A stretch of DNA of 64,000 nt from a virus: positions 1 to 64,000 of the IMG/VR virus record IMGVR_UViG_3300031867_000045, one strand, 5' to 3'. Positions within the stretch are counted from its first letter, which is position 1. Every line of letters begins with the position of its first letter. This document shows positions 8,191 through 39,025 of this stretch, piece after piece. The position numbers were made by a program, and so were the translations under genes. The notes beneath the pieces are model-generated. The model made no database searches. It was not told the DNA's origin and worked only from the letters and a program-made list of their open reading frames with translations.

Positions 8191-8312
8191 GCTTTTCGAG
8201 ATATTTACTGAATATCCCGATATTTTAACCGCATTTCCAGCGGCTCTTGACTACATTTAATATTGTAGCAAATCACCATTCAGTTGTCAAGTGTTTTCGA
8301 GTAATTTCTTAA
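8191..8312 (-). promoter_or_regulatory. promoter cassette: conserved motif, TTGACA-17 bp-TACAAT, hairpin, second motif copy, RBS (drives the SPFH gene)
   Basis: On the minus strand: AAGAAATTACTCGAAAACAC-TTGACA-17-TACAAT, then ccgctggaaatgcgg hairpin, then AAATATCTCGAAAAGCA followed by AAGGAG and ATG. Confidence 0.7.
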
Positions 8313-8320
8313 ATATTTTT

Positions 8321-9061
8321 TTAGAATGTATACCCGTCCATTAATCTCATTTTGAATTTATTTTTCTGATGGAGTGCATCAATCTTGTTCTTTACTGCCC
8401 CATCTTCGCAAATGCCTGTCCGAATATACCGATCAAGCGTTTCGTATGTAAAACCCAGGTTTTCCTCGTCAGTCTTTCCGCACAAACCATCTGATGGCTC
8501 TTTATCCATCAAATAGTCCGATAATCCGAGAGCATACCCAATGTCAATGACTTCACTTTTTGTAAACGGGGCAAGCGGCGACAAATCACCAACAGAATCT
8601 CCGTATCTCGTTGAATATCCGATATAGTCCTCAGATAAATTGCAAGTATTGACAACTCTACCGTTACTGCTCTGTGAAACAGCGTATAATGCAGCCATGC
8701 GGATTCTCGCAGGGAGATTGGTAGTTGTCTGACCGGAAATATTAAGAGTAGGCTCTTTTTCCATTCCGTCTAAAATTCCATCTACGGAATTGCCGATATT
8801 GATGGTAAAACTCTTAATTCTAAGAGTATTCACAAGCGTTTCAGCATATTTAATATCGTCCTGCTCGTGGTCTGGAAGTAAAACGCCGATGACGCGGTTT
8901 TCTCCCAAAGCCTTTACGCACAACGCGGCAACCACAGAGCTATCAATTCCGCCGGAAATTCCGACAATGGCTTTTCCAAAATTGCTATTCTTTCTGAACC
9001 AATCCTTAATCCATTCAGCACACTTTTCAGCATGATAATTTCCAAATCCAAATCTATTCAT
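8321..9061 (-). CDS. nadE: NH3-dependent NAD+ synthetase
   Basis: 246 aa; SGGIDS PP-loop motif and overall NadE-like sequence (GISGGIDSSVVAAL...). Confidence 0.75.
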   Translation of the reverse strand: MNRFGFGNYHAEKCAEWIKDWFRKNSNFGKAIVGISGGIDSSVVAALCVKALGENRVIGVLLPDHEQDDIKYAETLVNTLRIKSFTINIGNSVDGILDGMEKEPTLNISGQTTTNLPARIRMAALYAVSQSSNGRVVNTCNLSEDYIGYSTRYGDSVGDLSPLAPFTKSEVIDIGYALGLSDYLMDKEPSDGLCGKTDEENLGFTYETLDRYIRTGICEDGAVKNKIDALHQKNKFKMRLMDGYTF

Positions 9062-10530
9062 TAGAAATCACCGCCGTGCAAAGTTTTTCTGATTTCTTTC
9101 AGACTGGTTTCTTTCAGCATTTCACCATCACGGAAAATAGGCTTTAACATATTGCAAGGATCATTACTTGCTTCTTCCCAAGTCTTTTGATCTGTATAAG
9201 CAATCCCGCCATAATAATCCTCATAAACAAGACAACAACCCTTTTGAGAAGTCTTGAATCCGCCCTCTTTCGGGTCTTTGAAAATGGGAGTAGGCTTTCC
9301 GTCAATCTCACAATATGTCGCCTTAATACAAGAACTGAAAGTATCACGAGTAAACGGTTTTAGAATCCCATCTTCTTCAATGCACTGGAATGAGAACGAA
9401 CCGACACCGAGAGATACATTACAAGCCGCAAATCCGTTTTCTTTGAGAATTTCATAAATCTTCTCGCAACGCTGAACGGTAATTGAATCACCGTACAGAG
9501 CTTTCACACGAGGATCGAGGACTTTATATCCCTTGCTATTAATATAACCGCCGAACTGATCCCATAACTTGAATACCGTCTTTGTTACGACTTCCACGCA
9601 ATCGCCGGAATCTCCGCGCATAAGCATACAACCATTATGGTTCATAATTTCCTTTTTGAGTTTCGGAAGTACGTTATCAATTACATTCCAGTAATCATAA
9701 GAATCCAAAACGCAAGAAAATGATGTATTCGGGTAAATCTCCGTCAACAGTCTGCGGAGCAAAGTAATTTCATCACCGTCAACCGCAAAATTAGAACACA
9801 TTACAGAATGTTCGGTACTCGGAGCGCCAAATCCAACAGGTTCATTTTTGCAATCACAATTATAATTCTTTTCCAAATACGGAATTGCGGGAACCGTTGC
9901 AGTATTCAAGAATGAAAGCAACCAACCCGCAGCCGCCTTCGTTGCAGACTGTAAACATTCCTCACCGCGAAAATCAAAATCTCCCAACGCTCTTGCTCTC
10001 GGCATATCGTCGTCACAGGTTTCAGCATAATACTTGTTCACGATTTCACGATAAGTTGCGCCGACGGTGGCAGCCAACATGGGGTGCCACATTTCAGCCG
10101 AGATCAGCGATTCAAGCGACTGAGGAAGCCATGCAAAATCGGGATGGGTATTTGTGATTCCGAACATCGGAACGTGCATAGGCACTTTCGTTCCTTCGGG
10201 CAACGCCACAATTTCAATGGGTAAATATCCGAGATTATGCAGTTTCTTGATTTTGTTGATATTATATGTATCTTTTCCAAGAGTGGCGTCCATGATTCTT
10301 TGATATTCAACCAAAATCAGGTCGAGGGGCTTTTCAAAAAATTCTCTGTTGAAGTAATCAATCAGATATTCCTTAATAAATCCCTGCAATCCAAAGAATA
10401 CAACTTCATTCCAGCGCTTTACTCTGCTCATTCTCGGAGTAAAATAAGATACCGATTTTGTGATCTTTTCCGGCAACATTTCAGCGTGTACCGCCTTATA
10501 GTAGTCGATCAATAACATCGGATTCGTCAT
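9061..10530 (-). CDS. nadV: nicotinamide phosphoribosyltransferase (NadV/NAMPT)
   Basis: 489 aa; NAMPT-like blocks (DSYDYWNVI, LMRGDSGD, GVGSFSFQ...TRDTF) and the right length. Confidence 0.75.
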   Translation of the reverse strand: MTNPMLLIDYYKAVHAEMLPEKITKSVSYFTPRMSRVKRWNEVVFFGLQGFIKEYLIDYFNREFFEKPLDLILVEYQRIMDATLGKDTYNINKIKKLHNLGYLPIEIVALPEGTKVPMHVPMFGITNTHPDFAWLPQSLESLISAEMWHPMLAATVGATYREIVNKYYAETCDDDMPRARALGDFDFRGEECLQSATKAAAGWLLSFLNTATVPAIPYLEKNYNCDCKNEPVGFGAPSTEHSVMCSNFAVDGDEITLLRRLLTEIYPNTSFSCVLDSYDYWNVIDNVLPKLKKEIMNHNGCMLMRGDSGDCVEVVTKTVFKLWDQFGGYINSKGYKVLDPRVKALYGDSITVQRCEKIYEILKENGFAACNVSLGVGSFSFQCIEEDGILKPFTRDTFSSCIKATYCEIDGKPTPIFKDPKEGGFKTSQKGCCLVYEDYYGGIAYTDQKTWEEASNDPCNMLKPIFRDGEMLKETSLKEIRKTLHGGDF

Positions 10531-11393
10531 AGATTAAACACCTCGATTTTAGATGGCATTAAGTCAATATCTTTCGCATACTTCTGCGTACTCTTGACAA
10601 AAATGCTATCTGTAGTATATAGTTTCTCGATTAAATCTCCGTGTAACAATTCACCACGAAAAACGGTAAATTCACAATGAGTTACAAATAGATATATCTT
10701 ATCCGCGCCGAGTTCTTTTAACTTCTTCGCAGAATGTAAGAATGTTCCGCCTTTACTGCAAATATCATCAATGATTAAAACTATTTTGTTTTTAATCAAA
10801 TTTGTATCTCCGCAAACATCAAGCCCAAGAATATTTCCAGTTTCCCAATCTCGCCGTTTGATACCAAAAGCGTATGGTCGATTGATCTTGCCGGAATACC
10901 GTTTCATGGCACCTTCATCGGGAAAGAATATCGTTGGATTTGTTATGTAATTATCCTTGCAAACATTCTTAATTGCCTGTTCGATATAGGGAGTAGGTTC
11001 CAAAACGGTCAAATTATCGAACAACGCTTCACTCACAGAAGAATGAGGGTCTAAGACAACCACATTCAAGAATTTCAGCGCATTGATAAATTCCGCAAAA
11101 TATTTCAAAGTGAAAACATCCGATTTTCCCTTTACCCTATCCATTCTGGCGTTCGGAATATACGGCAAGAATAGCTCAACATCATAACCCAATCTTTGCA
11201 GGTGTTTTGTCAGAAATAAGATTGCTGCCATTTCACCGTCATTCTCGTAATGCCATGAAATAGTCACGGATTCTTGAATAGGCTCGACAGACTTCAACTC
11301 GGGTTTCAAGTGCAAAGTTCCATCGGGAAAATGATCGAGGACAACTTCGTTTCCATCAATTTTAATCATTCTGTTACCTCGTCGATCTGGCAA
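10527..11393 (-). CDS. prs: ribose-phosphate pyrophosphokinase (PRPP synthetase)
   Basis: 288 aa; PRPP-binding loop IVLIIDDICSKGGTF and PRPP synthetase N-domain. Confidence 0.7.
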   Translation of the reverse strand: MPDRRGNRMIKIDGNEVVLDHFPDGTLHLKPELKSVEPIQESVTISWHYENDGEMAAILFLTKHLQRLGYDVELFLPYIPNARMDRVKGKSDVFTLKYFAEFINALKFLNVVVLDPHSSVSEALFDNLTVLEPTPYIEQAIKNVCKDNYITNPTIFFPDEGAMKRYSGKINRPYAFGIKRRDWETGNILGLDVCGDTNLIKNKIVLIIDDICSKGGTFLHSAKKLKELGADKIYLFVTHCEFTVFRGELLHGDLIEKLYTTDSIFVKSTQKYAKDIDLMPSKIEVFNL

Positions 11394-12099: not shown

Positions 12100-12513
12100 T
12101 TAAAATCCGTTAAATCCATTCGGATTTCCGTTCATAATGTTGTCGTATTGGTTAATCAAATTCTGTAACTCAGGATCGCTTTTTGCCAACTCACGGTACA
12201 AAGAAAGATTACGATTTTCCTTAACATGCTTATCCATAGCCGTAACGAGCTTGTTAATTGTAGCAGTGTTTTCCTTTCTTCTGTTCCACGCAGAAAAATC
12301 CACCTTACAGATAATATCTTTTGTTGCGGCGACGCCAAAGTAATTGTTGGGTGAAATAATGTTCACCACTTTAGCTACAACAAAATCATTTGCGCTATCT
12401 GTAAGAACATAATCTCCGACACGGATATTTGTATCGTACAGCCGGAAAGCGTATTCCTTAGATGTGTTGAAGCCCCTAACAAAAGTCACCTTTGCGATTA
12501 AATAATGGTTCAT
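12100..12513 (-). CDS. hypothetical protein
   Basis: 137-aa ORF preceded by the conserved UTR motif and an RBS. Confidence 0.45.
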   Translation of the reverse strand: MNHYLIAKVTFVRGFNTSKEYAFRLYDTNIRVGDYVLTDSANDFVVAKVVNIISPNNYFGVAATKDIICKVDFSAWNRRKENTATINKLVTAMDKHVKENRNLSLYRELAKSDPELQNLINQYDNIMNGNPNGFNGF

Positions 12514-12607
12514 ATTCTTTTTCCTTTCTTTTGCTTTTCGAGTTATTTCTTGATTGCCTTGAAATAAAAACCGCAGGATCGCGGTCTTATTTCAAGTTCG
12601 ATTTTGA

Positions 12608-12684: not shown

Positions 12685-12687
12685 ATA

Positions 12688-13689
12688 TTATTCTGTCGGA
12701 AGATATAACCTCAATCGAGTTTTAATGTCTGCCGCTCTTACATCTGATGATACACCAAATTCAGAAGCGATTGATAGTAACTCATTTATATCATCGGAAT
12801 TGCGGAAGGACATAACTAATTTTTTAGTATGTTCCAAACCACATTTTTCGATAAAGAAATCATACATTCCGAGCCAATATATATTACGAAATGTGATCTT
12901 TAAATCATACCAATTTCGTATATATTCTGACAATAACTTGTTTAACGCGATTGCAACCTCTTTTTCCGGTCGTTCATCAAATGTATCTTCATGGCTGGGA
13001 CTTACAACAAAGTGCATATAACTACCATTCCAACTTCTCATTAACGAATTACGGAAAGAATTGAAAGTCGTTGTTTGATGATTGGCTTGAAGCAAAGTGA
13101 TTGTTCTCACATCAAGTTTAACAACTCTGCCCGGCAATACCACTTGCCTTGTTCGGAAATTAATATCCTTTTCTTTTAGATTGATAACTTCCGACAATTC
13201 ATAAAATCCACAATGGAATAAACCGCACAACAATTCAATTAAATCGGCACGATCATTCTTACCTTGCTTTCTCATATCGGTGAAAATATCCAGTAAATCT
13301 TGCCATTCCAAAGGCTTCGCAGCAGTTTCTAATATTTTCATCAATCCCTTGTTCCCTTTTAGATCGGGTGATCTCAACCAAATTGGAATAGGCTCAATAT
13401 TATATGAGTACCACTCGCAAACAACCGTCAACATGAGTTTCACTTGTTTATAAGTGAAGAACAAAATCGGCGACTGTTCTTTGGGATCAAGCGACTGTGT
13501 AAGAAGCACACGCACGAGCTGTATGGTTTCCTCTTTATTCATATCGACAAGTTCTTTACCGATCTTTTCCTCATACTTAAACAATAAATCATTGTCGATT
13601 GTATTTCTAACGGTATTCCTGCGGGTTTGATTATAACTTTCGTCAGCATAGAATCTGTCTAAGAGTTCTCTTGTGGATAATTTTCCCAT
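12688..13689 (-). CDS. hypothetical protein
   Basis: 333 aa; no confident motif. The central region (LIELLCGLFHCGFYELSEVINLKEKDINFRTRQVVLPGR) weakly resembles tyrosine-recombinase box I but lacks the catalytic Arg. Confidence 0.4.
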   Translation of the reverse strand: MGKLSTRELLDRFYADESYNQTRRNTVRNTIDNDLLFKYEEKIGKELVDMNKEETIQLVRVLLTQSLDPKEQSPILFFTYKQVKLMLTVVCEWYSYNIEPIPIWLRSPDLKGNKGLMKILETAAKPLEWQDLLDIFTDMRKQGKNDRADLIELLCGLFHCGFYELSEVINLKEKDINFRTRQVVLPGRVVKLDVRTITLLQANHQTTTFNSFRNSLMRSWNGSYMHFVVSPSHEDTFDERPEKEVAIALNKLLSEYIRNWYDLKITFRNIYWLGMYDFFIEKCGLEHTKKLVMSFRNSDDINELLSIASEFGVSSDVRAADIKTRLRLYLPTE

Positions 13690-13756
13690 AACAACACCTC
13701 ATTTAATACGATTATAGCAATATAATTCACCATTGTCAAGAAATAAATCGAAAAAA

Positions 13757-14125
13757 TCAGTGAACCAAGATAGGAAATTGTATGCAGATAGCGTCTGTAA
13801 TATGTGTCAGAATCGCATTGTCCGCAATTTCTCCGATACACTTATCTAATCTTTCGATGTTTACGGTCTGAATCTGCTCGATCAACAATGTACTCGGCGC
13901 TTTCAGCCCGTATTCATTGTAATCCCACAATTCAACGTGTACCGGCAACTTCTTCTTGCTCATTCTCGATGTAATGGGAATGACATTGAGCGTAGTGCTA
14001 TATGTATTATTTTTGTTGTTGGAGAGGATAAAGACAGGTCTATATCCGCCCTGTACGCTACCCTCCGAAGTAAGGTAGCATAGCCAGATTTCGCCGCAGC
14101 GAGGTCTTGTGTTTGAGCGCAGCAT
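13757..14125 (-). CDS. MazF/PemK/Kid-family endoribonuclease toxin, with no antitoxin ORF
   Basis: 122 aa; GEIWLCYLTSEGSVQGGYRPVFILSNN...TTLNVIPITSRM...PVHVEL...LKAPSTLLIEQIQTVNIERL matches the PemK/MazF fold signature. Confidence 0.6.
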   Translation of the reverse strand: MLRSNTRPRCGEIWLCYLTSEGSVQGGYRPVFILSNNKNNTYSTTLNVIPITSRMSKKKLPVHVELWDYNEYGLKAPSTLLIEQIQTVNIERLDKCIGEIADNAILTHITDAICIQFPILVH

Positions 14126-14276: not shown

Positions 14277-14327
14277 ATAATACCACATCATGGATAGTTT
14301 GTCAAGCATTTCGAGATATTTCTTTTT
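14277..14327 (-). promoter_or_regulatory. promoter cassette upstream of the mazF-like gene (motif, TTGACA-17 bp-TATTAT), followed by a ~150-nt structured leader
   Basis: On the minus strand: AGAAATATCTCGAAATGC-TTGACA-17-TATTAT. The leader contains a gtgcaa...ttgcac hairpin before the AAGGTGG RBS. Confidence 0.6.
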
Positions 14328-15053: not shown

Positions 15054-16025
15054 TTATTTCGCAACTCCTTCGATTAAGCTCATAAACTCATTCATGGCTT
15101 CAATATGAATCGCAGGATCAGAATTTCCGGCGTTCTCTGCCCCACTCTGATAAACCATAGCAATAATATCACGCAGGTCTGCAACATCGAGCGTCATAAC
15201 GGGATTTGTAGATTCCGCAGTGAAATTTTCGCCGCCCTGAACGTGCCTATTATAGAAATCTCCAAAATCCTTGAAATACTGATCGACCTTGCTTTTTGTC
15301 AAGCCGATATATCTCTTGGTGGTTTTCGTATCGCTATGATTGTAAATGGTCTGCAAGAGTTCCATGCTGTCATAGTCATTCGGGTGCAGCATACGACTGA
15401 TCTTTCCGAAAGTCTTTCGTGTGCTGTGCGTTCCAATATTGTATTCAATCCCGCAATTTTCCGCTGCACGTTTCAGCGCTTTTCTCCAACCATCGGGAGA
15501 AAGAACGTTGCCTTTTCCAGTTCCCGAAAGCTGCATGAATACAAATCCGTGATAGTTTTCCGCAGATGGATCACAGCCCGTCTTTTCGAGATACAGATTA
15601 ATGGCGTCCTTGCAAGCCTGATTGATATAAGGATTCGCCAGTTTGTCGGTCTTGTCCTCTACGATTTCCATTAATTCCGTGCGAAATTTTCCGTTTTTCG
15701 GATTAAAGAAATGTTCCCATGTCAAGCTCAGAGTATCACCGACACGACGAGCCATATTCAAAGAAATCACAAACAGCATATAATGAAGCCATGATTTGTT
15801 TTCAATAAAGTAATTCATCATTTTCCGCAAATCCGCGACTTCAAATGCGAATACTTCCGACTTCTTGCCCTTCTGCTTGTTTTGCTTGATCTTCTTGGGC
15901 TTGCCGTCCTTACGAAGTTTCGGGGCATTTTCCGGCTGAGGATCAACAGGCATTTCGGTAAAGAAAGTCTGTCCGGGAAAAAGTGGTGATGTTACCATAA
16001 CGGTATTAGTCTGAATATTTTTCAT
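15054..16025 (-). CDS. int: tyrosine-type site-specific recombinase (phage integrase)
   Basis: 323 aa; box I ARRVGDTLSLTWEHF, box II/III HSTRKTF...LLQTIYNHSDTKTTKRYI (R-H-R-Y catalytic residues); basic N-terminal arm. Confidence 0.75.
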   Translation of the reverse strand: MKNIQTNTVMVTSPLFPGQTFFTEMPVDPQPENAPKLRKDGKPKKIKQNKQKGKKSEVFAFEVADLRKMMNYFIENKSWLHYMLFVISLNMARRVGDTLSLTWEHFFNPKNGKFRTELMEIVEDKTDKLANPYINQACKDAINLYLEKTGCDPSAENYHGFVFMQLSGTGKGNVLSPDGWRKALKRAAENCGIEYNIGTHSTRKTFGKISRMLHPNDYDSMELLQTIYNHSDTKTTKRYIGLTKSKVDQYFKDFGDFYNRHVQGGENFTAESTNPVMTLDVADLRDIIAMVYQSGAENAGNSDPAIHIEAMNEFMSLIEGVAK

Positions 16026-16056: not shown

Positions 16057-16107
16057 ATTATACCATTTGTGATTTAGTTTGTCAAGCATTTCGAGATATT
16101 TCTTTTA
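16057..16107 (-). promoter_or_regulatory. promoter cassette for the integrase (motif, TTGACA-17 bp-TATAAT)
   Basis: On the minus strand: AAGAAATATCTCGAAATGC-TTGACA-aactaaatcacaaatgg-TATAAT, about 30 nt upstream of the int ATG. Confidence 0.65.
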
Positions 16108-19245: not shown

Positions 19246-21180
19246 TTAGTTATTCCTTCCGTATTCAAATACCGGCTTGTAAGTGTTGAAAATCGGTTTC
19301 AGCCCTTTTTTAAGGCAATAATCAATTACAATGTCAAACTGCTTCGGATCACAAGCTGAGATAATCGATCTCTGAATACTTACACCAGGCGTTTTACTCT
19401 CGACAGGCGTATAGAAAATATCTTTCGGAATATCCACCCAGCCGTCATAAATCAGAGCTTCGCCATAAATGCGAATTGAGTATAAGCCGCGCTTTCTCGG
19501 CAGCTTTACAATCAGTTTCACGGTGTTTTCGTACTGTGCATATTTTCCGATCTCGTAACTCTCGAATGTTACATGGTTGATCGATACCCAGCCGAATCCA
19601 TTAGATTGTATGACGGTATATTTTCCGCCCTGTTTCATATCGGCATATCGCATTTGATCTACCCTATTAATGGTTTCATTCAGTACACGATACATACAAT
19701 ACTTGAATTTTCCGACAGGAATAGCACGAACGATATTAACGTTGAACGGCACTTTATGACTATTGATGTAATTAACCATCTCGGCGCGGAACAGTTCAAA
19801 ACCCATTGAATTGTAATCACTTTCGGATTTATCATCATCAACAATGTAATCACTGTTGGCAGCGAGAATATCGTCCTTTGCCTTTTCCAGTTCTTCCGCC
19901 ACGGCTTCGTATTCTTTGAGCTTTTCCAATGTCATGGTGCCGGTGTTCGGTGCGAAAGTTTCCGTCACAACAGATTTTTCATCAACCTCATACACATAAC
20001 GACCATAATTATATCCCTGCGGATCAATAACCAGTTTCAAAACGTTTTCACAATAAATGGCAACACAATTTGTATTGTACCACTCAACTGTTTCACGTTC
20101 TTCCTTGCTCATGCGGGTGTAATCTTCCATATCCTTAACTCTGTAATCATCAGTATCGGAACCACCCATCTGTTCAAGGAACGAAAAATCAGTAATAAGA
20201 TGTTCATTGATAAACAGATTGTAAATATACTCAGACATGAATACTTTTCTTGCGATCTTGCAATTCACACGACCATGACGAGTATAATATTCATCTTCCT
20301 TTGAATCAAGATTGGGTACTTTGTTAGCAACCAACTTAACGCCTACCGCCCACATTTCGCAATCTTCCGTAGTGTGATTTGCTTCGATCTCGGCGGTTTC
20401 CGCTTCCATACGCTTTCTAAATTCTTCTGCACGTTTCCGGGCAATCTCATACTCGCGCATGGCTTCTTCATGTTCACGCTGCTTGCGTTCTTCCTCGGAC
20501 TTCTCAAACTCAGCAAGATCAATTTTGAATTGCTCGGAAATCGTATGTTCACCGACTGTTTCCTCGCGCTGTTCATACTCATATCTGCTTACAATATTAT
20601 TAGGATGATAGGAACCGTAAAAATTGACATCGAAATAGTCAGAATAATAATCGGAATTGTTATAATTATAACTATCAACAAATCTATAAACATACTCTGC
20701 GATAGCCTGTACCTCTGCGCTCTCACGATCCCAGGGACTTGACTTCATGGTAACGTCGATAGAATTATAATCCGATCTTACCGACCATTTGCACATCGGG
20801 AATCTCGCGCGAATGTGCTTACGAATAATAGTGGCGATCTCTTTGGTGTCGGTCAAATGGCTTTCCGCGTAATGATTCTTGATATTATCCGTTCTCGTCA
20901 TTTCAAACAGATTATAAGGTTTCTCGGACTTTTCGAGAGATTTCTTGACTTCGGCACAATTATCAAGGCTGTTAGCAAATGCCATACGCTCGTCGCTCTG
21001 CTTTGCGTACCACATTTTCTGCTTACCGCTCCAACGAAAACCGTTTGTCTTTAAACCCTCGATCACGCTTGCCGCGGGCTTACAATCAAATCTGATTTCG
21101 ATTCCGTTTTTCTCGTTATTGATCGTGATTGTCGTCATTTTGATGATCTCCTTTACTTGCGTTGTTGTCGTTGTTTTCAT
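19246..21180 (-). CDS. large hypothetical protein (644 aa) with a central charged coiled-coil
   Basis: Long ORF with its own consensus promoter (21188-21238); EEERKQREHEEAMREYEIARKRAEEFRKRMEAE coiled-coil; no recognisable catalytic motif. Confidence 0.5.
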   Translation of the reverse strand: MKTTTTTQVKEIIKMTTITINNEKNGIEIRFDCKPAASVIEGLKTNGFRWSGKQKMWYAKQSDERMAFANSLDNCAEVKKSLEKSEKPYNLFEMTRTDNIKNHYAESHLTDTKEIATIIRKHIRARFPMCKWSVRSDYNSIDVTMKSSPWDRESAEVQAIAEYVYRFVDSYNYNNSDYYSDYFDVNFYGSYHPNNIVSRYEYEQREETVGEHTISEQFKIDLAEFEKSEEERKQREHEEAMREYEIARKRAEEFRKRMEAETAEIEANHTTEDCEMWAVGVKLVANKVPNLDSKEDEYYTRHGRVNCKIARKVFMSEYIYNLFINEHLITDFSFLEQMGGSDTDDYRVKDMEDYTRMSKEERETVEWYNTNCVAIYCENVLKLVIDPQGYNYGRYVYEVDEKSVVTETFAPNTGTMTLEKLKEYEAVAEELEKAKDDILAANSDYIVDDDKSESDYNSMGFELFRAEMVNYINSHKVPFNVNIVRAIPVGKFKYCMYRVLNETINRVDQMRYADMKQGGKYTVIQSNGFGWVSINHVTFESYEIGKYAQYENTVKLIVKLPRKRGLYSIRIYGEALIYDGWVDIPKDIFYTPVESKTPGVSIQRSIISACDPKQFDIVIDYCLKKGLKPIFNTYKPVFEYGRNN

Positions 21181-21187: not shown

Positions 21188-21238
21188 ATTATATCACAGG
21201 TTTATACGATTGTCAACACTTTTCGAGAAATTTCCTGA
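21188..21238 (-). promoter_or_regulatory. promoter cassette (motif variant AGGAAATTTCTCGAAAAGTG, TTGACA-17 bp-TATAAT)
   Basis: Perfect -35 and -10 hexamers with 17-bp spacer on the minus strand. Confidence 0.65.
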
Positions 21239-25404: not shown

Positions 25405-25419
25405 TTCGTTTCCCTCGCT

Positions 25420-25534
25420 TTTCGAGATATTTCTTTTACTGGATTATTTTATAAGGGCGATCCGCCCTGTTTCATTGTATACATTATACCATATACATTT
25501 TAGATTGTCAATGCTTTTCGAGTAATTTCTTGAT
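25420..25534 (-). promoter_or_regulatory. full promoter cassette: motif, TTGACA-17 bp-TATAAT, agggcgGATcgccct hairpin, second motif, RBS
   Basis: On the minus strand: CAAGAAATTACTCGAAAAGCA-TTGACA-atctaaaatgtatatgg-TATAAT, then GGGCGGATCGCCC hairpin, then AGAAATATCTCGAAAAGCG-AGGGAAACGAA-ATG. Confidence 0.7.
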
Positions 25535-26014: not shown

Positions 26015-27250
26015 ATTGATAGCTCCTTTAGATAAAATATCATGTTTAGTATAACATATTTTCTTATAATTGCAAGGGATAGGCGGTAGTTAAACCGCCC
26101 AGCCCTGCGCTTTCCATTCCTCGATCACATCATAGCCATCATGGTACTTTGTGATGATTTCATCGTCCCATGAATAATAACCGTTCATATACTCGGTTAA
26201 ATCGTTAATGATCTTTTGCGGCGCTTTCTTATACTTATTCAGCCACCAGATATAATTGACGATCTTCTCAGTCGAAAACTCAGGATAACCACCGGCGACA
26301 TGACGATCAATGTTTTCTTTGATTCTGATAACCTTGCGCAATATTCCATTTTTGATCTGTTGCTTCTTTGCCATGATCTTGCCCCCTTGATTATCTTACA
26401 AGTCAATTATACTATATCATTTTAGTAATGTCAATACTTTTCGAGAAATTTCCCGAATTATTTTTTGCGGGCTTGCTTTCCGATCTGCTTCCAGTATTTT
26501 CGGCGTGACTTCTGATCCTTTAACTGCATAGCCCTCATGTTATGCTTTTTAAAATCGTCAATAGGCGGATTTGACGGCGTTGCTTTTTGGATAATACCGT
26601 ACACCGCCCAAACAAGCAAGATTAAAAAAACCACCACCAACCACATTGAATCACTCCCTCACAATCTCGTCCAATTTTTCAATAATGCCATTTGCGCCAT
26701 GAAGAACGCCCAAGGATTCCAGATCGTATATCAAGCCGATCAACTGACTATATGCCCTGCTGCCGGTCTTTGTAAAGTAATTATAATGCTTCTCGCCGTC
26801 ATAATCAATACATTCGATTGTTGGATTTTTCAAAAACGGTTTATTGCAACCAAAATATTCTTTTAAAATCTCGTCAAGTGCTTTCATGTGATCCTCCTTA
26901 AATTGTATTGTAGAAGATTTCCCGATACTCCGGTAATTTTTCTTTGATCGGTCTTTTATCGTTTAATGCTTTGATTAAATCGCTCGTTTTTAAAGTATCA
27001 AGGATTTTAAACCATTGATTTTGAGCGGGTAGCTGCTCAAATTTAAAGGCTTGATCTGCTCGCCTGTCTTTTGCTTCCCTCTCGATTCTCTCGATAATAT
27101 TGGCGGGCATTTTATCCTTTGAAATATACCATGTGATCCTGCCGCCGTCTGAGATATGCGCTACTGTAGGATAATCATTATTGATCTTGACCGCTACATT
27201 ATAAGCTGTGATCCCGTTGCCAAAGAATCCAAAGTGAATATCATATTTTG

Positions 27251-27592: not shown

Positions 27593-27699
27593 CTTTTCGA
27601 GTAATTTCTTGTAATGGATTTAACTTTAGGCGGATCGCCCGCCTTTCGATTACATATAGATTATAGCATATCATTTTAGTAATGTCAATACTTTTTTAA

Positions 27700-30955: not shown

Positions 30956-30994
30956 CTTTGTTTCCTCCTTTGACCTGTTCGAGATATTTCTTGA

Positions 30995-31513: not shown

Positions 31514-33997
31514 GGTATACTCTCCTTTGTTTTTCGAGATATTTCTTGTAATCCGCGCTGTTTTGTGGATCGCTCTCTTGATTACATATAAAGTATACCA
31601 TATCATTTTAGTAATGTCAATACATTTTTAAAAAATATTTATTACATGTTTGTAATTATTTCTTCCATTCATCACACCAATTATAAATCGTATTGTTGTT
31701 TGTTCCGTGTTCACAACAATGATTATATAACTGTGTGATAAAATCTCTTTCGATATCTGCACCGGTTATGTTCATATAATCTAACATACCCATTAGATAT
31801 ACAAGTCTATATCCTTCTGTAATGTTTAATAACTTTCCTATGATCCTGCGCTGCCTATCGTTCATTGTAAACCTCCGAAAAGTAAATCAAATTAGTTTTT
31901 TATCGTCATTAACTATCCCAATTATGAATATATTTCTCTTTATAGAATCCGGCGTGATATGCCGATAATTTACCGATATATGCGTCAAGCTCATGCTCTC
32001 CGCCGCTGCCATGATAAAATCCGATCACACTTGTTTCTAAATCTTCGCCCGTTCTCCGATCCAACATGATGAAAGTCAAATCCGTGTCCGGTGCATACGT
32101 TGTATATACTTTGTATTCTCTGATGATCTTCTCTCCGGCAATCATTCCGCCGTGTGTTTCAACCTCGGTAATAATACCATATTGTACTTTTTCCAGTAAA
32201 CCGTTATTTGCTTCGGCTCCGTCACGCACCATATCCAGTAAATCATTGACCGCCTCAAAATCATCGGAATATGTGTCGCTGATTGAATTTCCAAATACTG
32301 TTTCCACTTCAAGATTATAGTGCTTCATGCTGATTCCTCCTATTCTATAACCATGAATCCAGTGTAAAGGCTTCTGTTGATCTTGACCGGATAATCCTCG
32401 ATAAAGTGATGACTTGCGCCTGATTTTCCGTAAAAGCCCTTGATATGCTCGATATTCTTCTCATTTATCGTGTCCGGCGTCGCTTTGCCGATTAAACCAA
32501 CAACAACCGGATTTGCGCCGATCTCTGATACTCTTTGAAAACGTCCTGCAATATTCATGTTATTTCCTCCTTAACTGAAAACGATATATTCTCCGCCGAT
32601 TCTGCCGATCAAATCCAAAATGCGGATAACGTCTTGACCGGATTCAATCGCGTTATTGACCTTCTTCAAATTTTCCTCTGTGCCATTAAATACCATATCA
32701 CAATGGAAATTATATATCTTGTCCGTGATCTCGACTATGCCCTCATGTGCTTTATATCCGACCGCTGCGGGATAGAACATCTTATAGGTTTTAATAAGCT
32801 CGATTGCCGTGCAATTCAAAAGATTGTTTGCTTCCGGCATTCCGTTATATTCCCATATTGAAAATGCCTGATTATAGTCTGCTTTCGCTCTCTCTAATCT
32901 CTTTTCTATTGTCATTGTTATTCTCCCTTTTATGCAATTCTACGGCTGCCAGGTCTGTACTTGTATAGGGTCTTTTCTGCTTCTTCAAATGTGTTAAACC
33001 GCTGCGCTGTTGCTACTCCGTCCGGATTATCCGCCGTGACCTGCTTTTTGATCTGAAATTTATGATTCGGCAATTCAACGATCTTTGCATAGATTGTATG
33101 ACCTTTTTTATATGTTTTATATACTGCTGATATTGTGATCCTCCTTAGATGAATAAATGTCTAAAATAGGGCTTTGCTTCGGTAAATGTGATATATCTGT
33201 TGTGAATTTCCGCCGTTTCCTTTGCCATGCTCATATCGGCGCATACCGTGTAGATGTTGACCGTTCCGACCGCTGCCGATTCAGTTTTGTATACTGCCGG
33301 AATTTCGCTTGTCCTGCTGCTCTTGAATGTTCCGGCTGTATAGATGTTTACCCTCTTGATCCGCGGGCGACTTTTCAATAATACGGCTTCCGCCGCTTCG
33401 TATGTGTTAAACTCTCCGCTGGTTGTTACGCCGTATGGATTCCGCTTGTCGATCCCGTATGTGATACAAAATCCGCGATTCTCGATATACTTGATCTCGT
33501 ATAACTCCGCCGTGTTATCGTGTTTATAGATTGCCATGATTATACCCTCGCTTCATAACTTCTAAATGGATCGGTAAAAGAATTAACATAATGATAGCAA
33601 TAAACCATATGATTTAATACTCCGTAAATTCCGCCCTTGATAGCTTCCTTTACTTTCCGCGCGGCTTCCGTCCTGCTGATTCCGTCATGCCACATGACCG
33701 TCTTGATATATTCCGATTTAGTATAAAACAGTTTATTGCTTTTCATGCCGTGACCCTCCTTGTTTCCTTTGCTTTACGCCATGCGGCTCTGATTTCCGCC
33801 CGCGCTTCTTCGCTCATTTCATATAAATGTGTTCGGCTTCCCATGCCCCATATCTGCATTTTATAGCCTTTATCGCGGGCAACCTGTCGCGCTGCCGTGC
33901 CGCCGTCAATCTGTATTCCTTGATACATGATCCCGCCCTGCTTGTCCGTCAAGATGACGAATACATTATTATTATTTTTCATCGTTTCCGCCCTCTC

Positions 33998-34444: not shown

Positions 34445-34595
34445 TTCGTTTCCCTCGCTTTTCGAGTAATTTACTGATTAATATTGATTTGTTGGCGGGA
34501 TTTCCGGCTCCCGCCCTGCCTGATCTGTTGTATATATCTTATCACATATATTTAGTAATGTCAATAGCTTTTCGAGATATTTCTTGAATTTTTTT
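34445..34595 (-). promoter_or_regulatory. full promoter cassette (motif, TTGACA-17 bp-TAAGAT, gggcgggagccggaaatcccgcc hairpin, motif, RBS)
   Basis: On the minus strand: TTCAAGAAATATCTCGAAAAGCTA-TTGACA-ttactaaatatatgtga-TAAGAT, hairpin, AAATTACTCGAAAAGCG-AGGGAAACGAA-ATG. Confidence 0.65.
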
Positions 34596-37226: not shown

Positions 37227-37622
37227 TTAGATGAATTGAATATCTGATTCGGTAATTTCTACCATAACAGATTCTTGATTCAATTCGGTTTTAATATCAC
37301 TAACCATATCATGCAAGGATTCGATCATGCTATCGCTTGCAATTTCAACGCGGATTGACGGCTCATTAACAATGTTACCGGTAGATTGCATTTTGTAATA
37401 GCCGTTACATTCGATCATCGTAAAAGCGAAAATATCATAGACATTTAATAAGATATTAGCTATAATATTTTTTGCGGATTCAGTGCCGATCTTTTGTGAT
37501 TCAGTGTCCTTATCGAATAAACCGATTGTTAATACTGTTTTTGTCATTGTAATTACCTCCTGATTTGATTGCTTTTTGATTTCGAGTATTTTCTTGATTG
37601 CAAGGCTATTATATAATATCAT
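37227..37622 (-). CDS. hypothetical protein, first gene of the leftward block
   Basis: 131 aa; preceded by TTGACA-17 bp-TATAAT, the motif and an AGGAGG RBS (37575-37640). Confidence 0.45.
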   Translation of the reverse strand: MILYNSLAIKKILEIKKQSNQEVITMTKTVLTIGLFDKDTESQKIGTESAKNIIANILLNVYDIFAFTMIECNGYYKMQSTGNIVNEPSIRVEIASDSMIESLHDMVSDIKTELNQESVMVEITESDIQFI

Positions 37623-37640
37623 TTTAGTATTGTCAATAGA

Positions 37641-38970
37641 TTATTTAAACTTTTTTGATGAATTATTGCATTTTGGCGGATTGCACAAACCAACATGATA
37701 TTACTTGTATAATTTGCACAATGCCGGGATCGTGCTGCTATTACTGGATATAGTATTATATATTATACTTATTATATACCACAATATTATATTGCTATAA
37801 AAGAATATTACATACTGTAATATGATATCGGATCAATTACTATTTGTATATTTTATTATTCTATAATAGAATATTGTATAGTCCTGGATCATGCTTATTA
37901 TTCTATTGTAGAATTATAATTTTGTGGGATAAAGTACCGTTTATTGGACTTTGTTTGTATTGAGTACAATAAATTGGACTTTGTAAAGTACATTATTGCG
38001 ATGATATAACTTTAATTGTGATGATTAAATTTGATTGAATTGTGATTATTTTTGATTAAATTTGAGGGAATTTGACTGAGTTTGCTTTTAGGTGTAAAGC
38101 ATTTTACTTTACACCTCTCGAAAAATCTGAAAATCCTTTATTTCTTTTAAAGCATAATAATTTCATAGAATCCATCGGGATCATGCTACAATTCCAAAAT
38201 GTGAATAAAACATTTATTTGATGACTATATTGTAATTCTGTTTTTTGCACTATTACAGAATTAAAGCCCAAAAATTGAGCATTTATACTACTTGCCTACT
38301 TGATAGGTAGGTAGGGGGTAGGTTTACATCTCGAACATCTGTTCGAGCCGGATGCCGGTTTTAATGTGCTCCCCTCTACTCTCACCTCAAAATTTAAATC
38401 CCCCTTACCTGTTCAATTTTTGAACACTCACCGAAAATTACAGTCAACAATTAAAGGTGTTCAATAATTGGTACTTTTTCTGAAAATTAGTCGTTTATCG
38501 AAAACGCAAAAAATTTATTAAAGTGTTCAATAACTGATACTTTTTTGGTGAAATTTTCGACGTACCGAAAACTGAGTAAAAATCCCGCAATTTTTCGTTT
38601 TTATAAAAGCTCAGTTTTTGAACAAAAATATTTTAAGGTAAACGATCAAAACAATCGATCATGGTGGTTTCGAGATAAAAGTTGCGGAAAATTGATGAAA
38701 ACATTTCGGTAATTTTGCTCCGAAATTCTGGTAAGCAACCCGAAAAATCATTCCGAAAATTACCTTAAAACGAAACTGCGACCGCAACTTAATCTATTTA
38801 CTATATACTATACGTTACTTATATAATTACATTGTATATAGATTAAGTAAAGTATATAATTACTATACATAACGTATAGTAAATAATAATTACTATAAGT
38901 AATGTATAGTAATTAATATATATATAATATATATACCTATTTATATGCGATTTTTTAGATCAATTTAAAC
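37641..38970. promoter_or_regulatory. large non-coding divergent control region with several repeat families (candidate replication origin or regulatory hub)
   Basis: No ORF of 60 aa or more. Three copies of GGGATC(G/A)TGCT-type sites (about 37725, 37883, 38173). Perfect inverted repeats ggtgtaaag/ctttacacc and tcgaaca/tgttcga. Two ~32-nt direct repeats (gtgttcaataa-tg-tactttttt) at about 38456 and 38520. At least 8 CCGAAAA repeats at 38400-38760. Palindrome array B at 38760-38960. Confidence 0.5.
38760..38960. repeat. AT-rich 29-bp palindrome array, copy B
   Basis: aattactatacataacgtatagtaa and aattactataagtaatgtatagtaatta; ends tatatgcgatttttt like copy A. Confidence 0.6.
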
Positions 38971-38974
38971 TTAT

Positions 38975-39025
38975 TCAAGAAATATCTCGAAAAGACTTGA
39001 CAACCGAGGAAATATGCTCTACAAT
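38975..39025 (+). promoter_or_regulatory. rightward promoter cassette (motif, TTGACA-17 bp-TACAAT)
   Basis: TCAAGAAATATCTCGAAAAGAC-TTGACA-accgaggaaatatgctc-TACAAT, followed by aacctgcgggattgcaggtt hairpin, then GAGG RBS and ATG at 39085. Confidence 0.7.

What the first reader, a model, noticed from the sequence alone, without database searches (positions are those of the whole stretch)
8191..39025. Dispersed family of at least 14 near-identical promoter cassettes with a conserved 20-nt motif in two positions
Upstream of many genes on both strands, the same architecture recurs in transcription orientation: [T]CAAGAAAT(A/T)(A/T)CTCGAAAAG(C), then a perfect or near-perfect -35 TTGACA, an exactly 17-bp spacer (often the same spacer, ttactaaaatgatat..), a -10 of TATAAT/TACAAT/TATACT, often a short GC-rich hairpin, then a second copy of the 20-nt motif immediately before the RBS and ATG. 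Instances include 8191-8312, 12523-12550 (UTR copy only), 14277-14327, 16057-16107, 21188-21238, 25420-25534, about 26400-26460, 27593-27660, 30965-30990 (UTR copy only), 31525-31620, 34445-34595, 37575-37640, 38975-39025 (plus strand) and a degenerate copy at 57495-57525. The uniform 17-bp spacer strongly supports genuine host sigma-70/sigma-A promoters. The cassettes resemble T4 PeSL (promoter-early stem-loop) units and would provide homology for gene shuffling. Two genes (24634-25404 and 33998-34444) even share identical leaders and first codons. The function of the conserved 20-mer is open. It could be a UP-element-like activator or repressor operator. When transcribed as the UTR copy it could be an RNA element for translation control or processing. 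It could also be the promoter of a phage-encoded RNAP, since the UTR copy sits exactly where a short-leader phage promoter would.
Basis: seen in the sequence. Interest (0 to 1): 0.8.

Follow-up and report, generated by a model that had tools for sequence, protein, structure and literature searches.

The report
Repressor boxes flanking phage early promoters
The repeated 20-letter motif is real and is most likely the docking site of this gut-bacterial virus's master "dormancy" repressor, a type so far studied only in Bacillus phages SPbeta and phi3T; this makes it a new example of a known switch, not a new mechanism.

Summary
CAAGAAATWWCTCGAAAAG occurs 19 times against 0.2 expected. 18 of 19 copies point the same way as transcription, and nearly all are intergenic. 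Eight copies end 1-3 nt before a TTGACA-17-TAnnnT promoter, and eight end just before a ribosome-binding site.

The window is a distant SPbeta-like phage of gut/rumen Clostridia: it has YonO-type RNA polymerase, terminase and portal in SPbeta order. SPbeta and phi3T carry a dispersed, asymmetric, A-tract-rich box (SPBRE / SroF box). My scans find that box in the same positions and with the same co-orientation, including the two-copy arrangement at yonX and phi3T_70. In those phages it binds the monomeric integrase-fold master repressor MrpR/YopR/SroF.

Best reading: these are operator boxes of a SroF-like repressor (confidence about 0.68). No binding or transcript data exist. It is a new member of a known kind, of moderate interest.

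The parts
8293..8311 (-). Box copy A1. It ends 2 nt before the -35 of promoter 8290-8262 (TTGACA-17-TACAAT).
8192..8210 (-). Box copy A2. It starts 51 nt after the -10, follows a GC hairpin, and its SD begins 5 nt downstream. It precedes gene 6525-8174 (SPFH/Band 7).
12534..12552 (-). Solo box copy B. It follows tRNA-Met and a terminator-like hairpin and sits directly before the SD of gene 12100-12513.
   Evidence: orthologous copy in L036 at 14472
14307..14325 (-). Box copy C. It ends 1 nt before the -35 of promoter 14305-14277 (TTGACA-17-TATTAT). A long leader then runs to the PemK/MazF-like gene.
16087..16105 (-). Box copy D. It ends 1 nt before the -35 of promoter 16085-16057, which heads the tyrosine-recombinase-like gene 15054-16025.
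   Evidence: orthologous copy in L036 at 9921 and L042 at 4876
21219..21237 (-). Box copy E. It ends 2 nt before the -35 of perfect promoter 21216-21188, heading gene 19246-21180 (LPD29).
20929..20947 (-). Intragenic co-oriented copy (CAAGAAATCTCTCGAAAAG) inside gene 19246-21180. Its flanks do not fit the extended box, and it is absent from the L036 orthologue.
25514..25532 (-). Box copy F1. It ends 2 nt before the -35 of perfect promoter 25511-25483.
25418..25436 (-). Box copy F2. It starts 46 nt after the -10, follows a GC hairpin and abuts the SD of gene 24634-25404.
26437..26455 (-). Box copy G. It ends 2 nt before the -35 of perfect promoter 26434-26406.
27593..27611 (-). Box copy H. It starts 48 nt after the -10 of promoter 27688-27660 (which has no upstream copy), follows a GC hairpin and abuts the SD.
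30975..30993 (-). Solo box copy I, directly before the SD of gene 30473-30955.
31530..31548 (-). Box copy J. It starts 43 nt after the -10 of promoter 31620-31592 and abuts the SD of the SprT-like gene.
34568..34586 (-). Box copy K1. It ends 3 nt before the -35 of promoter 34564-34536 (TTGACA-17-TAAGAT).
34458..34476 (-). Box copy K2. It follows a GC hairpin and abuts the SD of gene 33998-34444. The leader is identical to that of F2.
37578..37596 (-). Degenerate box copy L. It starts 11 nt after the -10 of perfect promoter 37636-37608, the first early promoter on the minus arm.
38976..38994 (+). Box copy M. It ends 2 nt before the -35 of promoter 38997-39025, which heads the plus-strand operon containing the YonO-like RNA polymerase gene. 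It is the positional equivalent of the SPBRE at SPbeta yonP.
57504..57522 (+). Orphan co-oriented copy N, 1 nt after the stop of gene 56393-57502 (a late-region gene, 55% identical to its MT835469 counterpart). It is adjacent to neither a promoter nor an SD.
13737..13755 (+). Weak inverted copy (CAAGAAATAAATCGAAAAA) overlapping the -35 of promoter 13739-13711, which drives the SroF-like gene. The equivalent sites in L036 and L042 carry those phages' own motif type. Tentative.
12688..13689 (-). Candidate cognate repressor: a 333-aa protein with the SroF/MrpR/YopR integrase-like fold and no conserved catalytic histidines. It has its own perfect sigma-A promoter with no co-oriented box.
13757..14125 (-). 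PemK/MazF-like toxin gene, directly upstream of the SroF-like gene in the window and in all five relatives examined.
15054..16025 (-). Tyrosine-recombinase-like gene of 323 aa. Catalytic R, K, HxxR, H and Y are invariant in 20 homologues. It is probably a true recombinase, possibly the YopP/SroD counterpart, and not the repressor.
40235..43048 (+). YonO-like single-chain RNA polymerase gene. It marks the phage as SPbeta-like.
   Evidence: 26% identity, E = 6e-25 to SPbeta yonO

Best explanation
The roughly 23-bp asymmetric motif (W-T-W)CAAGAAATWWCTCGAAAAG(C) is this phage's equivalent of the SPBRE / SroF box of Bacillus phages SPbeta and phi3T. It would be the operator of an integrase-fold master repressor that binds DNA as a monomer. 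The candidate repressor is the 333-aa product of 12688-13689 (minus strand).

Proposed mechanism in a lysogen:
- One repressor molecule wraps each box.
- Boxes ending 1-3 nt before the -35 (about -38 to -60) keep host RNA polymerase off the strong early sigma-A promoters.
- Boxes just before ribosome-binding sites act as roadblocks. They stop transcripts that start at the promoter 11-51 nt upstream or read through from the preceding operon.
- Together they silence the minus-strand early arm and the plus-strand operon that carries the YonO-type RNA polymerase gene. Late genes are thereby silenced indirectly.
- Because a monomer reads an asymmetric site, the box has a direction. That fits its strict co-orientation with transcription.

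Shown here: the motif, its positions, its orientation, the SPbeta-like ancestry of the phage, the SroF-like fold of the protein, and parallel divergence of protein and motif among relatives.

Inferred: that this protein binds this motif; that binding represses; and the roadblock role of the copies next to ribosome-binding sites.
For: 1. The phage is SPbeta-like. tblastn against SPbeta matches YonO RNA polymerase (E = 6e-25), yonJ, yonN, yonG, terminase yonF (32% identity, E = 1e-94), portal yonE and yonD, in the same order, next to a divergent early arm.

2. SPbeta has a known counterpart. ChAP-seq, EMSA and lacZ fusions show that MrpR binds the dispersed SPBRE at ten promoter regions, including yonP upstream of yonO (PMC10516654).

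3. SPBRE has the same layout in my scan of SPbeta. All good copies are co-oriented with the downstream gene. They lie 6 nt upstream of the -35 (aimR, yonX), inside the spacer, or abutting the SD (yopM, yopV). yonX has the two-copy form: box, promoter, box, SD.

4. phi3T behaves the same way. Its box is co-oriented, lies upstream of promoters or abuts SDs, and occurs twice at phi3T_70.

5. SroF binds as a monomer to a 26-bp asymmetric box with two A-tracts and reads 24 bp of it (bioRxiv 10.1101/2025.11.27.690993). The window motif is about 23 bp, asymmetric, and has GAAA at positions 4-7 and 14-17, one helical turn apart. From AAGAA onward, the phi3T box (TTAAGAATAAAAATAAAAT) matches the sister-phage motif TTCAAGAAATAAAGCAAAATG at 14 of 18 positions, counted by eye.

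7. The protein and the motif diverge together. The SroF-like protein is 54-55% identical to those of L036 and L042, against 74-79% for the neighbouring genes. It is 33-35% identical to those of L038, L040 and L043, against 59-69% for the neighbours. The three protein groups carry three motif types at orthologous cassettes. In cassette A, both copies changed in the same 3' half while the promoter and hairpin stayed 81% identical.

8. The group looks temperate. Homologues of the repressor candidate lie on contigs of up to 907 kb and in MAGs of Ruminococcus, Acutalibacteraceae and Ca. Colimorpha.

9. Intrinsic terminators are not enriched in the early arm (10 found, 11.4 expected), so read-through is plausible.
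Against: - There is no binding, transcript-start or expression data for this phage. The link between protein and motif rests on analogy and on a three-group co-variation.
- The motif has no sequence resemblance to the SPBRE of SPbeta itself.
- In the more distant relatives (L038, L040, L043, L048, L049) the element upstream of the -35 is looser and looks like a generic A-tract/UP region. A different conserved palindrome (TATAGTAAATGAGTTACTACAA) follows the -10 there. Part of the promoter-proximal motif may therefore be ordinary promoter architecture.
- Copy N, after a late gene, and the intragenic copy at 20929 are not explained.
- The downstream copies are 43-51 nt from the -10, with a conserved hairpin in between. 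That is farther than in SPbeta yopV or yopM.
- No AimR/arbitrium homologue or Sar-like antirepressor was identified in the window.
Confidence: 0.68

Rival explanations
1. Generic promoter architecture kept uniform by recombination, with no dedicated binding protein. The promoter-proximal copy would be an A-tract/UP-like element that helps host RNA polymerase. Copies would stay alike within a genome through gene conversion among cassettes, as with T4 PeSL. Copies next to ribosome-binding sites would be recombination joints or 'solo' remnants of cassettes bounded by direct repeats.
For: The region from -38 to about -66 is A-rich in all relatives and shares AAAAATAATT. In L038, L040 and L043 the same frame holds a looser TGGAAAAGTTTCAAAAAAG. 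The box-promoter-hairpin-box cassettes look like units flanked by direct repeats. Gene content differs between the window and L036 within a conserved backbone.
Against: Eight copies sit before an SD with no promoter. The invariant CTCGAA core is not A-tract-like. Both copies of cassette A changed in the same half while the intervening promoter and hairpin were conserved. The indel boundaries against L036 do not evidently coincide with cassettes. The experimentally characterised boxes in SPbeta and phi3T have the same layout.
Confidence: 0.12
2. RNA-level element. Once transcribed, the motif would be a single-stranded site between a 5' hairpin and the SD. It would be recognised by a phage or host RNA-binding protein or endoribonuclease for translational control or mRNA processing, for example the PemK/MazF-like toxin (13757-14125) or the RNase J-like protein (46112-47554).
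For: Copies are strictly co-oriented with transcription (18 of 19). Eight copies sit immediately next to an SD, and a GC hairpin precedes five of them. The motif is mostly unpaired in minimum-free-energy folds. RNase-type genes are present. The early arm is co-directional with few terminators, so the promoter-proximal copies could also be transcribed by read-through.
Against: No conserved structure or pairing involves the motif, and no Rfam family matches. Co-orientation is also seen for the DNA-bound boxes of SPbeta and phi3T, and follows from monomer binding to an asymmetric site. Precise spacing to the -35 (1-3 nt) is a DNA-level feature. MazF-type sites are 3-7 nt long, not about 23 (established knowledge of MazF/PemK toxins).
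Confidence: 0.1
3. Promoter or activator site for a phage-directed transcription machinery. The 20-mer would be recognised by the YonO-like RNA polymerase, or by a phage activator, and would start short-leader transcripts at the copies next to ribosome-binding sites.
For: A YonO-like polymerase is encoded nearby, and its promoter sequence is still undefined in SPbeta (PMC5467207). The SD-proximal copies are where a short-leader promoter would sit. One copy (57504) lies inside the late gene block.
Against: [quoted passage not shown] Here 17 of 19 copies are in the early arm, next to strong host-type promoters. The corresponding SPbeta and phi3T boxes are bound by the repressor.
Confidence: 0.05

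Closest known systems
SPBRE (SPbeta repeated element) with the master repressor MrpR = YopR = SroF of Bacillus phage SPbeta (PMC10516654)
   Same: The phage backbone is shared: YonO, terminase and portal in synteny, with divergent early and late arms. Both have a dispersed asymmetric box of about 20 bp, co-oriented with transcription. In both it lies just upstream of the -35, or abutting the SD, or in both places around one promoter (yonX). Both have a box at the promoter of the operon that contains yonO. Both encode an integrase-fold protein of about 330 aa lacking the catalytic residues.
   Different: The box sequence is unrelated (CAAATACAAATAATATGTATA there). The proteins show no detectable sequence similarity. 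In SPbeta many boxes lie inside the promoter spacer, which is not seen here. This phage has more copies per kb (at least 17 in 64 kb, against ten ChAP-seq peaks in 134 kb). Five cassettes here have a GC hairpin between the -10 and the downstream box. The candidate repressor gene follows a PemK/MazF-like gene and has its own promoter, rather than ending a yopM-R operon. The host is a gut/rumen member of the Oscillospirales, not Bacillus. No arbitrium genes were seen in the window.
SroF box and SroF-Sar switch of Bacillus phage phi3T (bioRxiv 10.1101/2025.11.27.690993; PDB 9rd5, 9rgl)
   Different: The window's own type has a CTCG core where phi3T has an A-tract. No Sar-like antirepressor was identified. 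A perfect LexA-type box is present (38332-38345) but is not linked to any gene.
T4-type PeSL (promoter-early stem-loop) cassettes (PMC2839356, PMC4122927)
   Same: Both are repeated early-promoter modules with a stem-loop, scattered among small genes of unknown function. Such modules could serve as homology for recombination.
   Different: PeSLs are composite terminator/promoter units defined by their role at indel boundaries. Here the hairpin lies in the 5' leader and lacks a T-run. The defining repeated unit is a separate 23-bp box that also occurs without a promoter. Cassette-bounded indels were not demonstrated.
Bacterial UP elements (alpha-CTD binding sites at -40 to -60)
   Same: The promoter-proximal copies have the UP position and A-rich character. 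AAAAATAATT lies further upstream in all relatives.
   Different: An identical sequence occurs next to ribosome-binding sites away from any promoter. The core is an invariant non-A-tract CTCG. The sequence type is specific to each phage.

Membership tests
SPBRE / SroF (MrpR, YopR) operator-repressor system of SPbeta-like phages | The phage belongs to the SPbeta-like lineage: YonO single-chain RNA polymerase ahead of a late operon with SPbeta-type terminase and portal, divergent from an early arm. | tested here: met
   tblastn against NC_001884 matches YonO (E = 6e-25), yonJ, yonN, yonG, yonF (E = 1e-94), yonE and yonD in the same order. The closest GenBank terminases include SPbeta-like phages. 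Identities are low (22-32%).
SPBRE / SroF (MrpR, YopR) operator-repressor system of SPbeta-like phages | It encodes a repressor of about 320-330 aa with an integrase/tyrosine-recombinase fold (CB and CAT domains) that has lost the catalytic residues. | tested here: met
SPBRE / SroF (MrpR, YopR) operator-repressor system of SPbeta-like phages | A long (20-26 bp), non-palindromic, A-tract-containing box is present in many dispersed intergenic copies in front of early operons. | tested here: met
   19 copies against 0.2 expected. The box is about 23 bp, with GAAA repeated 10 bp apart. At least 15 of 19 copies are intergenic.
SPBRE / SroF (MrpR, YopR) operator-repressor system of SPbeta-like phages | Placement of the box: co-oriented with the regulated gene; immediately upstream of or overlapping the promoter and/or abutting the SD; a copy at the promoter of the yonP-yonO operon. 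| tested here: met
   Window. SPbeta. phi3T. Copy M at 38976 heads the operon with the YonO-like gene.
SPBRE / SroF (MrpR, YopR) operator-repressor system of SPbeta-like phages | The repressor binds the box specifically and represses the adjacent promoters. | not testable with these tools
   This needs EMSA, ChAP-seq or reporter assays. The only indirect support is three repressor groups matching three motif types in six genomes.
SPBRE / SroF (MrpR, YopR) operator-repressor system of SPbeta-like phages | Companion modules are present: arbitrium (AimR/AimP/AimX), the sroA-F operon, and a LexA-controlled Sar antirepressor. | tested here: inconclusive
   No AimR, YopQ or YosL homologue was found in the window at E < 1. 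The recombinase-like ORF weakly resembles YopP/SroD (E = 0.005). A perfect CGAACAGATGTTCG box lies at 38332-38345, but no Sar-like gene is assigned. Only 64 kb of a probably larger genome was examined (closest GenBank relative 176 kb; relatives' contigs 130-190 kb).
T4-type PeSL cassettes | A composite terminator/early-promoter unit whose copies delimit insertions, deletions or replacements between related genomes. | tested here: inconclusive
   Promoter plus hairpin is present, but the hairpin lies downstream of the promoter and has no T-run. blastn blocks between the window and L036 break at places not clearly tied to cassettes.
UP element | An A/T-rich sequence at -40 to -60 of a promoter that acts only in that position. 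| tested here: not met
   Eight copies lie next to an SD with no -35/-10 downstream, one follows a late gene and one is intragenic. The position criterion is met only for the eight promoter-proximal copies.
Known RNA families (Rfam 15) | A match to a curated covariance model over the leader or motif. | tested here: not met
   Only a tRNA and a SAM riboswitch reach the gathering score in 7000-40000, and neither overlaps a cassette.

The most novel reading that the evidence does not exclude
SroF-type integrase-fold monomeric repressors and their dispersed directional boxes would not be a peculiarity of Bacillus arbitrium phages. They would be an ancient, widespread lysogeny switch of YonO-carrying phages, including large (130-190 kb), tRNA-rich phages of gut and rumen Clostridia. 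In this clade the repressor gene is always coupled to a phage-borne PemK/MazF-like toxin gene directly upstream. In phi3T, by contrast, the host MazEF system is wired into the lysis-lysogeny decision (PMC10769878). The boxes may also double as UP-like promoter elements, so that repressor and the RNA polymerase alpha subunit would compete for the same DNA.
Probability: 0.25. Interest if true: 0.6.

Novelty: new member of a known kind. Interest (0 to 1): 0.42.

Why it matters
If confirmed, the unusual SroF/MrpR mode of prophage repression would extend from a few Bacillus phages to an abundant clade of uncultured large phages of gut and rumen Clostridia. In that mode a dead integrase wraps as a monomer around a long directional box at many scattered sites.

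It would also provide a natural series of diverged repressor-box pairs (three types in six genomes). These could be used to work out how this fold reads DNA and how immunity specificity evolves.

In practice, the boxes mark the repressor-controlled early regulon of a phage whose early genes are almost all of unknown function. The motif type could serve as an immunity-group marker in metagenomes.

Tried and rejected
- **Closest database relatives.** Megablast of 12 kb of the early arm against GenBank phages found nothing. An exact-pattern scan of IMG/VR gave only single, apparently chance hits, and no relative with multiple copies.
- **MT835469.** This is the closest GenBank phage (176 kb, terminase 50% identical). 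It lacks the motif, and k-mer and repeat searches gave no convincing equivalent, only a 3-copy AATAAGnACyTTACAAACAACAC before some start codons.
- **First repressor candidate.** I tried the 323-aa Pfam 'Phage_integrase' ORF (15054-16025). I rejected it because its catalytic R-K-HxxR-H-Y are invariant, its model is mediocre (pLDDT 71), its Foldseek hits are ordinary recombinases, and MrpR is absent from the top 50.
- **Sequence searches for the repressor.** BLASTP, phmmer and hhalign searches for YopR/MrpR, YopQ, AimR and YosL homologues in the window were all negative. Only fold comparison found the SroF-like protein.
- **Early ORF annotation.** Pfam scans of about 30 further early ORFs gave no DNA-binding domains.
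- **RNA folding.** Folding around all copies showed no common structure involving the motif.
- **PeSL-type shuffling.** Cassette-bounded indels against L036 were not evident.
- **Inverted copy.** I treat the inverted copy on the repressor gene's -35 as tentative. Part of its match is forced, because the motif's start, TCAAG, resembles the reverse complement of TTGACA.

Full report

Yes. The 19-mer CAAGAAATWWCTCGAAAAG with up to three mismatches occurs 19 times in the 64-kb window, against 0.2 expected; none of 100 dinucleotide-preserving shuffles comes close. Words from it are the most repeated 11-mers of the window.

I found two further copies. One is intragenic, at 20929-20947. The other is weak and inverted, at 13737-13755.

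A position weight matrix built from 17 copies shows conservation about 3 nt further 5' (A/T-T-T/A) and 1 nt further 3'. The unit is therefore about 23 bp. Its invariant core is AAAT..CTCGAA, and GAAA is repeated exactly 10 bp apart.

Eighteen of 19 copies point in the local direction of transcription (P = 4e-5). At least 15 of 19 are intergenic, in a window that is about 85% coding (P = 1e-9). With the true start codons, only 20929 is inside a gene.

**2. Anatomy of the cassettes**

The minus-strand genes from about 38 kb down to position 1 form a co-directional array of mostly small ORFs of unknown function. From 39 kb the plus strand carries the late genes.

- Eight motif copies end 1-3 nt before a TTGACA hexamer that is followed by exactly 17 bp and a TAnnnT -10. 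These are 8293, 14307, 16087, 21219, 25514, 26437, 34568 and 38976(+). Five of these promoters are perfect 12/12 consensus matches.
- Eight copies end 1-7 nt (16 nt for 37578) before a Shine-Dalgarno sequence. These are 8192, 12534, 25418, 27593, 30975, 31530, 34458 and 37578.
- Cassettes A, F and K have both copies, 96-110 bp apart.
- Cassettes H, J and L have a promoter with only the downstream copy.
- Cassettes B and I are solo copies with no nearby promoter.
- In A, F, H, J and K a short GC-rich hairpin without a T-run lies between the -10 and the downstream copy.
- Copy N (57504) follows a late gene and is next to neither a promoter nor an SD.

**3. What genome is this?**

The window has 19 tRNA genes, a terminase, a portal and NAD-salvage genes. 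Its terminase is closest to an unannotated 176-kb phage from human faeces (50% identity). Next come Lysinibacillus, Thomasclavelia and Clostridioides phages and the Bacillus SPbeta-like phages.

I compared all window ORFs with SPbeta (NC_001884) by tblastn. The 937-aa ORF 40235-43048 matches the single-chain RNA polymerase YonO (E = 6e-25). The yonJ, yonN, yonG, yonF (terminase), yonE (portal) and yonD counterparts follow in the same order. So the window is a distant SPbeta-like phage with the same divergent early and late arms.

Identical and related contigs occur in gut metagenome assemblies. Homologues of one of its genes lie on contigs of up to 907 kb and in MAGs of Ruminococcus, Acutalibacteraceae and Ca. 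Colimorpha. The group is therefore probably temperate and infects gut/rumen Oscillospirales.

**4. The known counterpart**

SPbeta has the 'SPbeta repeated element' (SPBRE). ChAP-seq, EMSA and lacZ fusions showed that it is the binding site of the master repressor MrpR (= YopR = SroF). This protein has a tyrosine-recombinase fold and no recombinase activity. [quoted passage not shown]

I located the element in the SPbeta sequence; it is approximately CAAATACAAATAATATGTATA. All good copies are co-oriented with the downstream gene. They lie in one of three places:
- 6 nt upstream of the -35 (aimR, yonX);
- inside the promoter spacer (yorE, yorM, yorZ, yosX, yonP);
- directly against the SD (yopM, yopV, and a second copy at yonX).

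The copy at yonP heads the operon that contains yonO, just as copy M (38976) heads the operon with the YonO-like gene here.

A 2025 preprint solved phi3T SroF bound to its 26-bp box. SroF binds as a monomer and encircles the DNA. It reads 24 of the 26 bp, including two consecutive A-tracts, and appears to sense DNA shape (10.1101/2025.11.27.690993).

In the phi3T genome the box, read in gene orientation, is (A)TTAAGAATAAAAATAAAAT(T)AC. It too is always co-oriented with transcription. It sits upstream of promoters or against SDs, and occurs twice around the promoter of phi3T_70.

A monomer on an asymmetric site gives the box a direction. That accounts for the strict orientation, which would otherwise suggest an RNA element or a promoter.

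**5. Is there a matching repressor in the window?**

My first candidate was the 323-aa Pfam 'Phage_integrase' ORF (15054-16025). It keeps all catalytic residues in 20 homologues. Its model resembles ordinary recombinases, and MrpR is not among its top 50 hits. It is probably a real recombinase, possibly the YopP/SroD counterpart (weak BLASTP match, E = 0.005).

The 333-aa ORF 12688-13689 has no Pfam, PHROG or PDB sequence match and no detectable similarity to YopR. With an alignment of 21 homologues it gave a confident model (pLDDT 92.8, pTM 0.88).
- Foldseek against the PDB ranks the SroF-Sar complex, SroF-DNA, MrpR and three YopR entries first (E = 3e-6 to 6e-5), ahead of Tn1549 integrase, XerA and Cre.
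- No histidine is conserved in the family, so the HxxR and His catalytic positions are gone.

The gene has its own perfect sigma-A promoter (13739-13711) with no co-oriented box. It follows a PemK/MazF-like toxin gene in the window and in every relative examined.

**6. Comparative test**

I fetched the orthologous 16-21 kb from five relatives.
- L036 and L042 have neighbouring genes 74-79% identical to the window's. They carry boxes at the orthologous places: cassette A with both copies (both relatives), the copy after the terminator as in B (both), the copy in front of the recombinase-like gene as in D (both), and the copy before the LPD29 gene (L036 only). Their motif is TTCAAGAAATA[A/G][A/G][A/G/C]CAAAATG. 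The 5' half is the same as here, but there is no CTCG.
- In the pairwise alignment of cassette A, the promoter, hairpin and leader are conserved (81% identity overall). Both box copies differ in the same 3' half.
- L038, L040 and L043 (neighbours 59-69% identical) have a looser element in the same frame upstream of the -35 (TGGAAAAGTTTCAAAAAAG). They also have a different conserved sequence, TATAGTAAATGAGTTACTACAA, right after the -10.

The SroF-like protein falls into the same three groups and diverges much faster than its neighbours. It is 54-55% identical between the window and L036/L042, and 33-35% identical between the window and the third group.

Uniformity within a genome, divergence between genomes and a fast-evolving cognate protein are what one expects of an immunity-specific operator-repressor pair. 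With only three groups this is suggestive, not proof.

**7. Mechanism proposed**

*Shown here:*
- the motif, its two positions and its orientation;
- the sigma-A promoters;
- the SPbeta-like ancestry of the phage;
- the SroF-like fold of the 333-aa protein;
- the parallel divergence of protein and motif.

*Established in SPbeta and phi3T, from the papers:*
- such boxes bind the repressor as a monomer;
- binding represses the adjacent promoters.

*Inferred here:*
- The 333-aa protein binds each box.
- Copies at about -38 to -60 keep RNA polymerase off the early promoters.
- Copies before ribosome-binding sites block elongation from the promoter 11-51 nt upstream, or from read-through of the preceding operon. 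This is plausible because terminator-like sites are not enriched in the early arm (10 found, 11.4 expected).
- Silencing promoter M keeps the YonO-type polymerase, and so the late genes, off.

A weak inverted copy overlaps the -35 of the repressor gene's own promoter. It follows the motif type in L036 and L042, which would fit autoregulation. Part of that match is forced by TTGACA itself, so I treat it as tentative.

**8. Rivals**

- *Generic A-tract/UP-like architecture homogenised by recombination, PeSL-like (about 0.12).* Favoured by the AAAAATAATT shared upstream of the -35 and by the looser third type. Weakened by the promoter-less copies, the CTCG core and the concerted change in cassette A. 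Indel boundaries against L036 do not clearly coincide with cassettes.
- *RNA-level element (about 0.10).* Favoured by orientation and closeness to the SD. Weakened by the absence of any common structure, the absence of an Rfam match and the exact spacing to the -35.
- *Promoter for the YonO-like polymerase or an activator site (about 0.05).* In SPbeta, YonO starts the late operon at one site and is not needed for early genes.

**9. Verdict**

The feature is best filed as a new, sequence-distinct member of the SPBRE/SroF (MrpR) operator-repressor system. It sits in a clade of large phages of gut/rumen Clostridia where this system had not been described, as far as the papers I read show.

It is not a new kind of mechanism. 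Its value is in widening the known range of an unusual repressor and in offering natural specificity variants. Interest is about 0.4.

Noticed in passing
window 22051-22202 (-): A SAM riboswitch (Rfam RF00162; 49.6 bits against a gathering score of 44.4). It lies directly after a box-less sigma-A promoter (22247) and before small ORFs 21700-22011 and 21320-21694. A similar leader is visible in relatives L036, L038 and L043, so a phage-encoded S-box seems conserved in this group.
   Followed up: partly
window 38332-38345, within the non-coding region 37640-38975: A perfect 14-bp LexA/DinR-type box (CGAACAGATGTTCG). It is the only GAAC-N4-GTTC in the window and sits in the 1.3-kb non-coding region between the early and late arms. 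The region also holds TTTTCGG/CCGAAA repeats and direct repeats AGTAyCAnTTATTGAACAC (about 38475 and 38540). In SPbeta and phi3T a LexA-controlled antirepressor (Sar) inactivates SroF. No gene could be tied to the box here.
   Followed up: partly
window 27839-27870 and 38857-38915: AT-rich palindromic repeats (TAATTACTATA..TATAGTAATTA), each followed by tatatgcgattttttt. They lie in the two longest intergenic gaps, and the second is just upstream of box copy M. Possible origin or second operator. Their TAGTAA/TTACTA words recall the TATAGTAAATGAGTTACTACAA element that follows the -10 in relatives L038, L040 and L043.
   Followed up: no
window 285-357 (-); tRNA clusters 285-6461, 12608-12684 and 44163-45886: 19 tRNA genes, including a predicted suppressor tRNA with anticodon TTA, which would read the TAA stop codon.
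   Followed up: no
window 13757-14125 (-), with 12688-13689 (-): A PemK/MazF-like toxin gene lies immediately upstream of the SroF-like repressor gene, in the window and in all five relatives. In phi3T the host MazEF system is part of the lysis-lysogeny decision (PMC10769878). A phage-borne MazF next to the repressor may be related to that.
   Followed up: partly
window 8321-11929 (-): An NAD salvage/synthesis cluster downstream of cassette A: NAD synthase-like, NAMPT/NAPRTase, PRPP-synthase-like and isochorismatase/nicotinamidase-like genes. It may act as a counter-defence against NAD-depleting systems.
   Followed up: no
window 46112-47554 (+): An RNase J / beta-CASP metallo-beta-lactamase ribonuclease-like gene between the YonO-like gene and the yonJ homologue. 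It is conserved in MT835469 (32% identity) but not found in SPbeta.
   Followed up: no
window 39046-39067: A terminator-like hairpin with a T-run, between promoter M and the first gene of the operon that contains the YonO-like polymerase. It may be a leader attenuator adding a second layer of control over the late switch.
   Followed up: no
window 668-1213 (-) and L044 7800-9500 (left part of the window and beyond): tRNA-related enzymes among the tRNA genes: an RNA 2'-phosphotransferase (PF01885) and a Thg1-like protein (PF04446). A further two-copy box cassette lies about 2.2 kb beyond the left edge of the window (L044 12719 and 12862).
   Followed up: partly
window 37227-37622 (-): The first gene after the leftward early promoter L has a weak, below-threshold Pfam match to S-adenosylmethionine lyase (E = 0.001), the T3-type anti-restriction function.
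   Followed up: no
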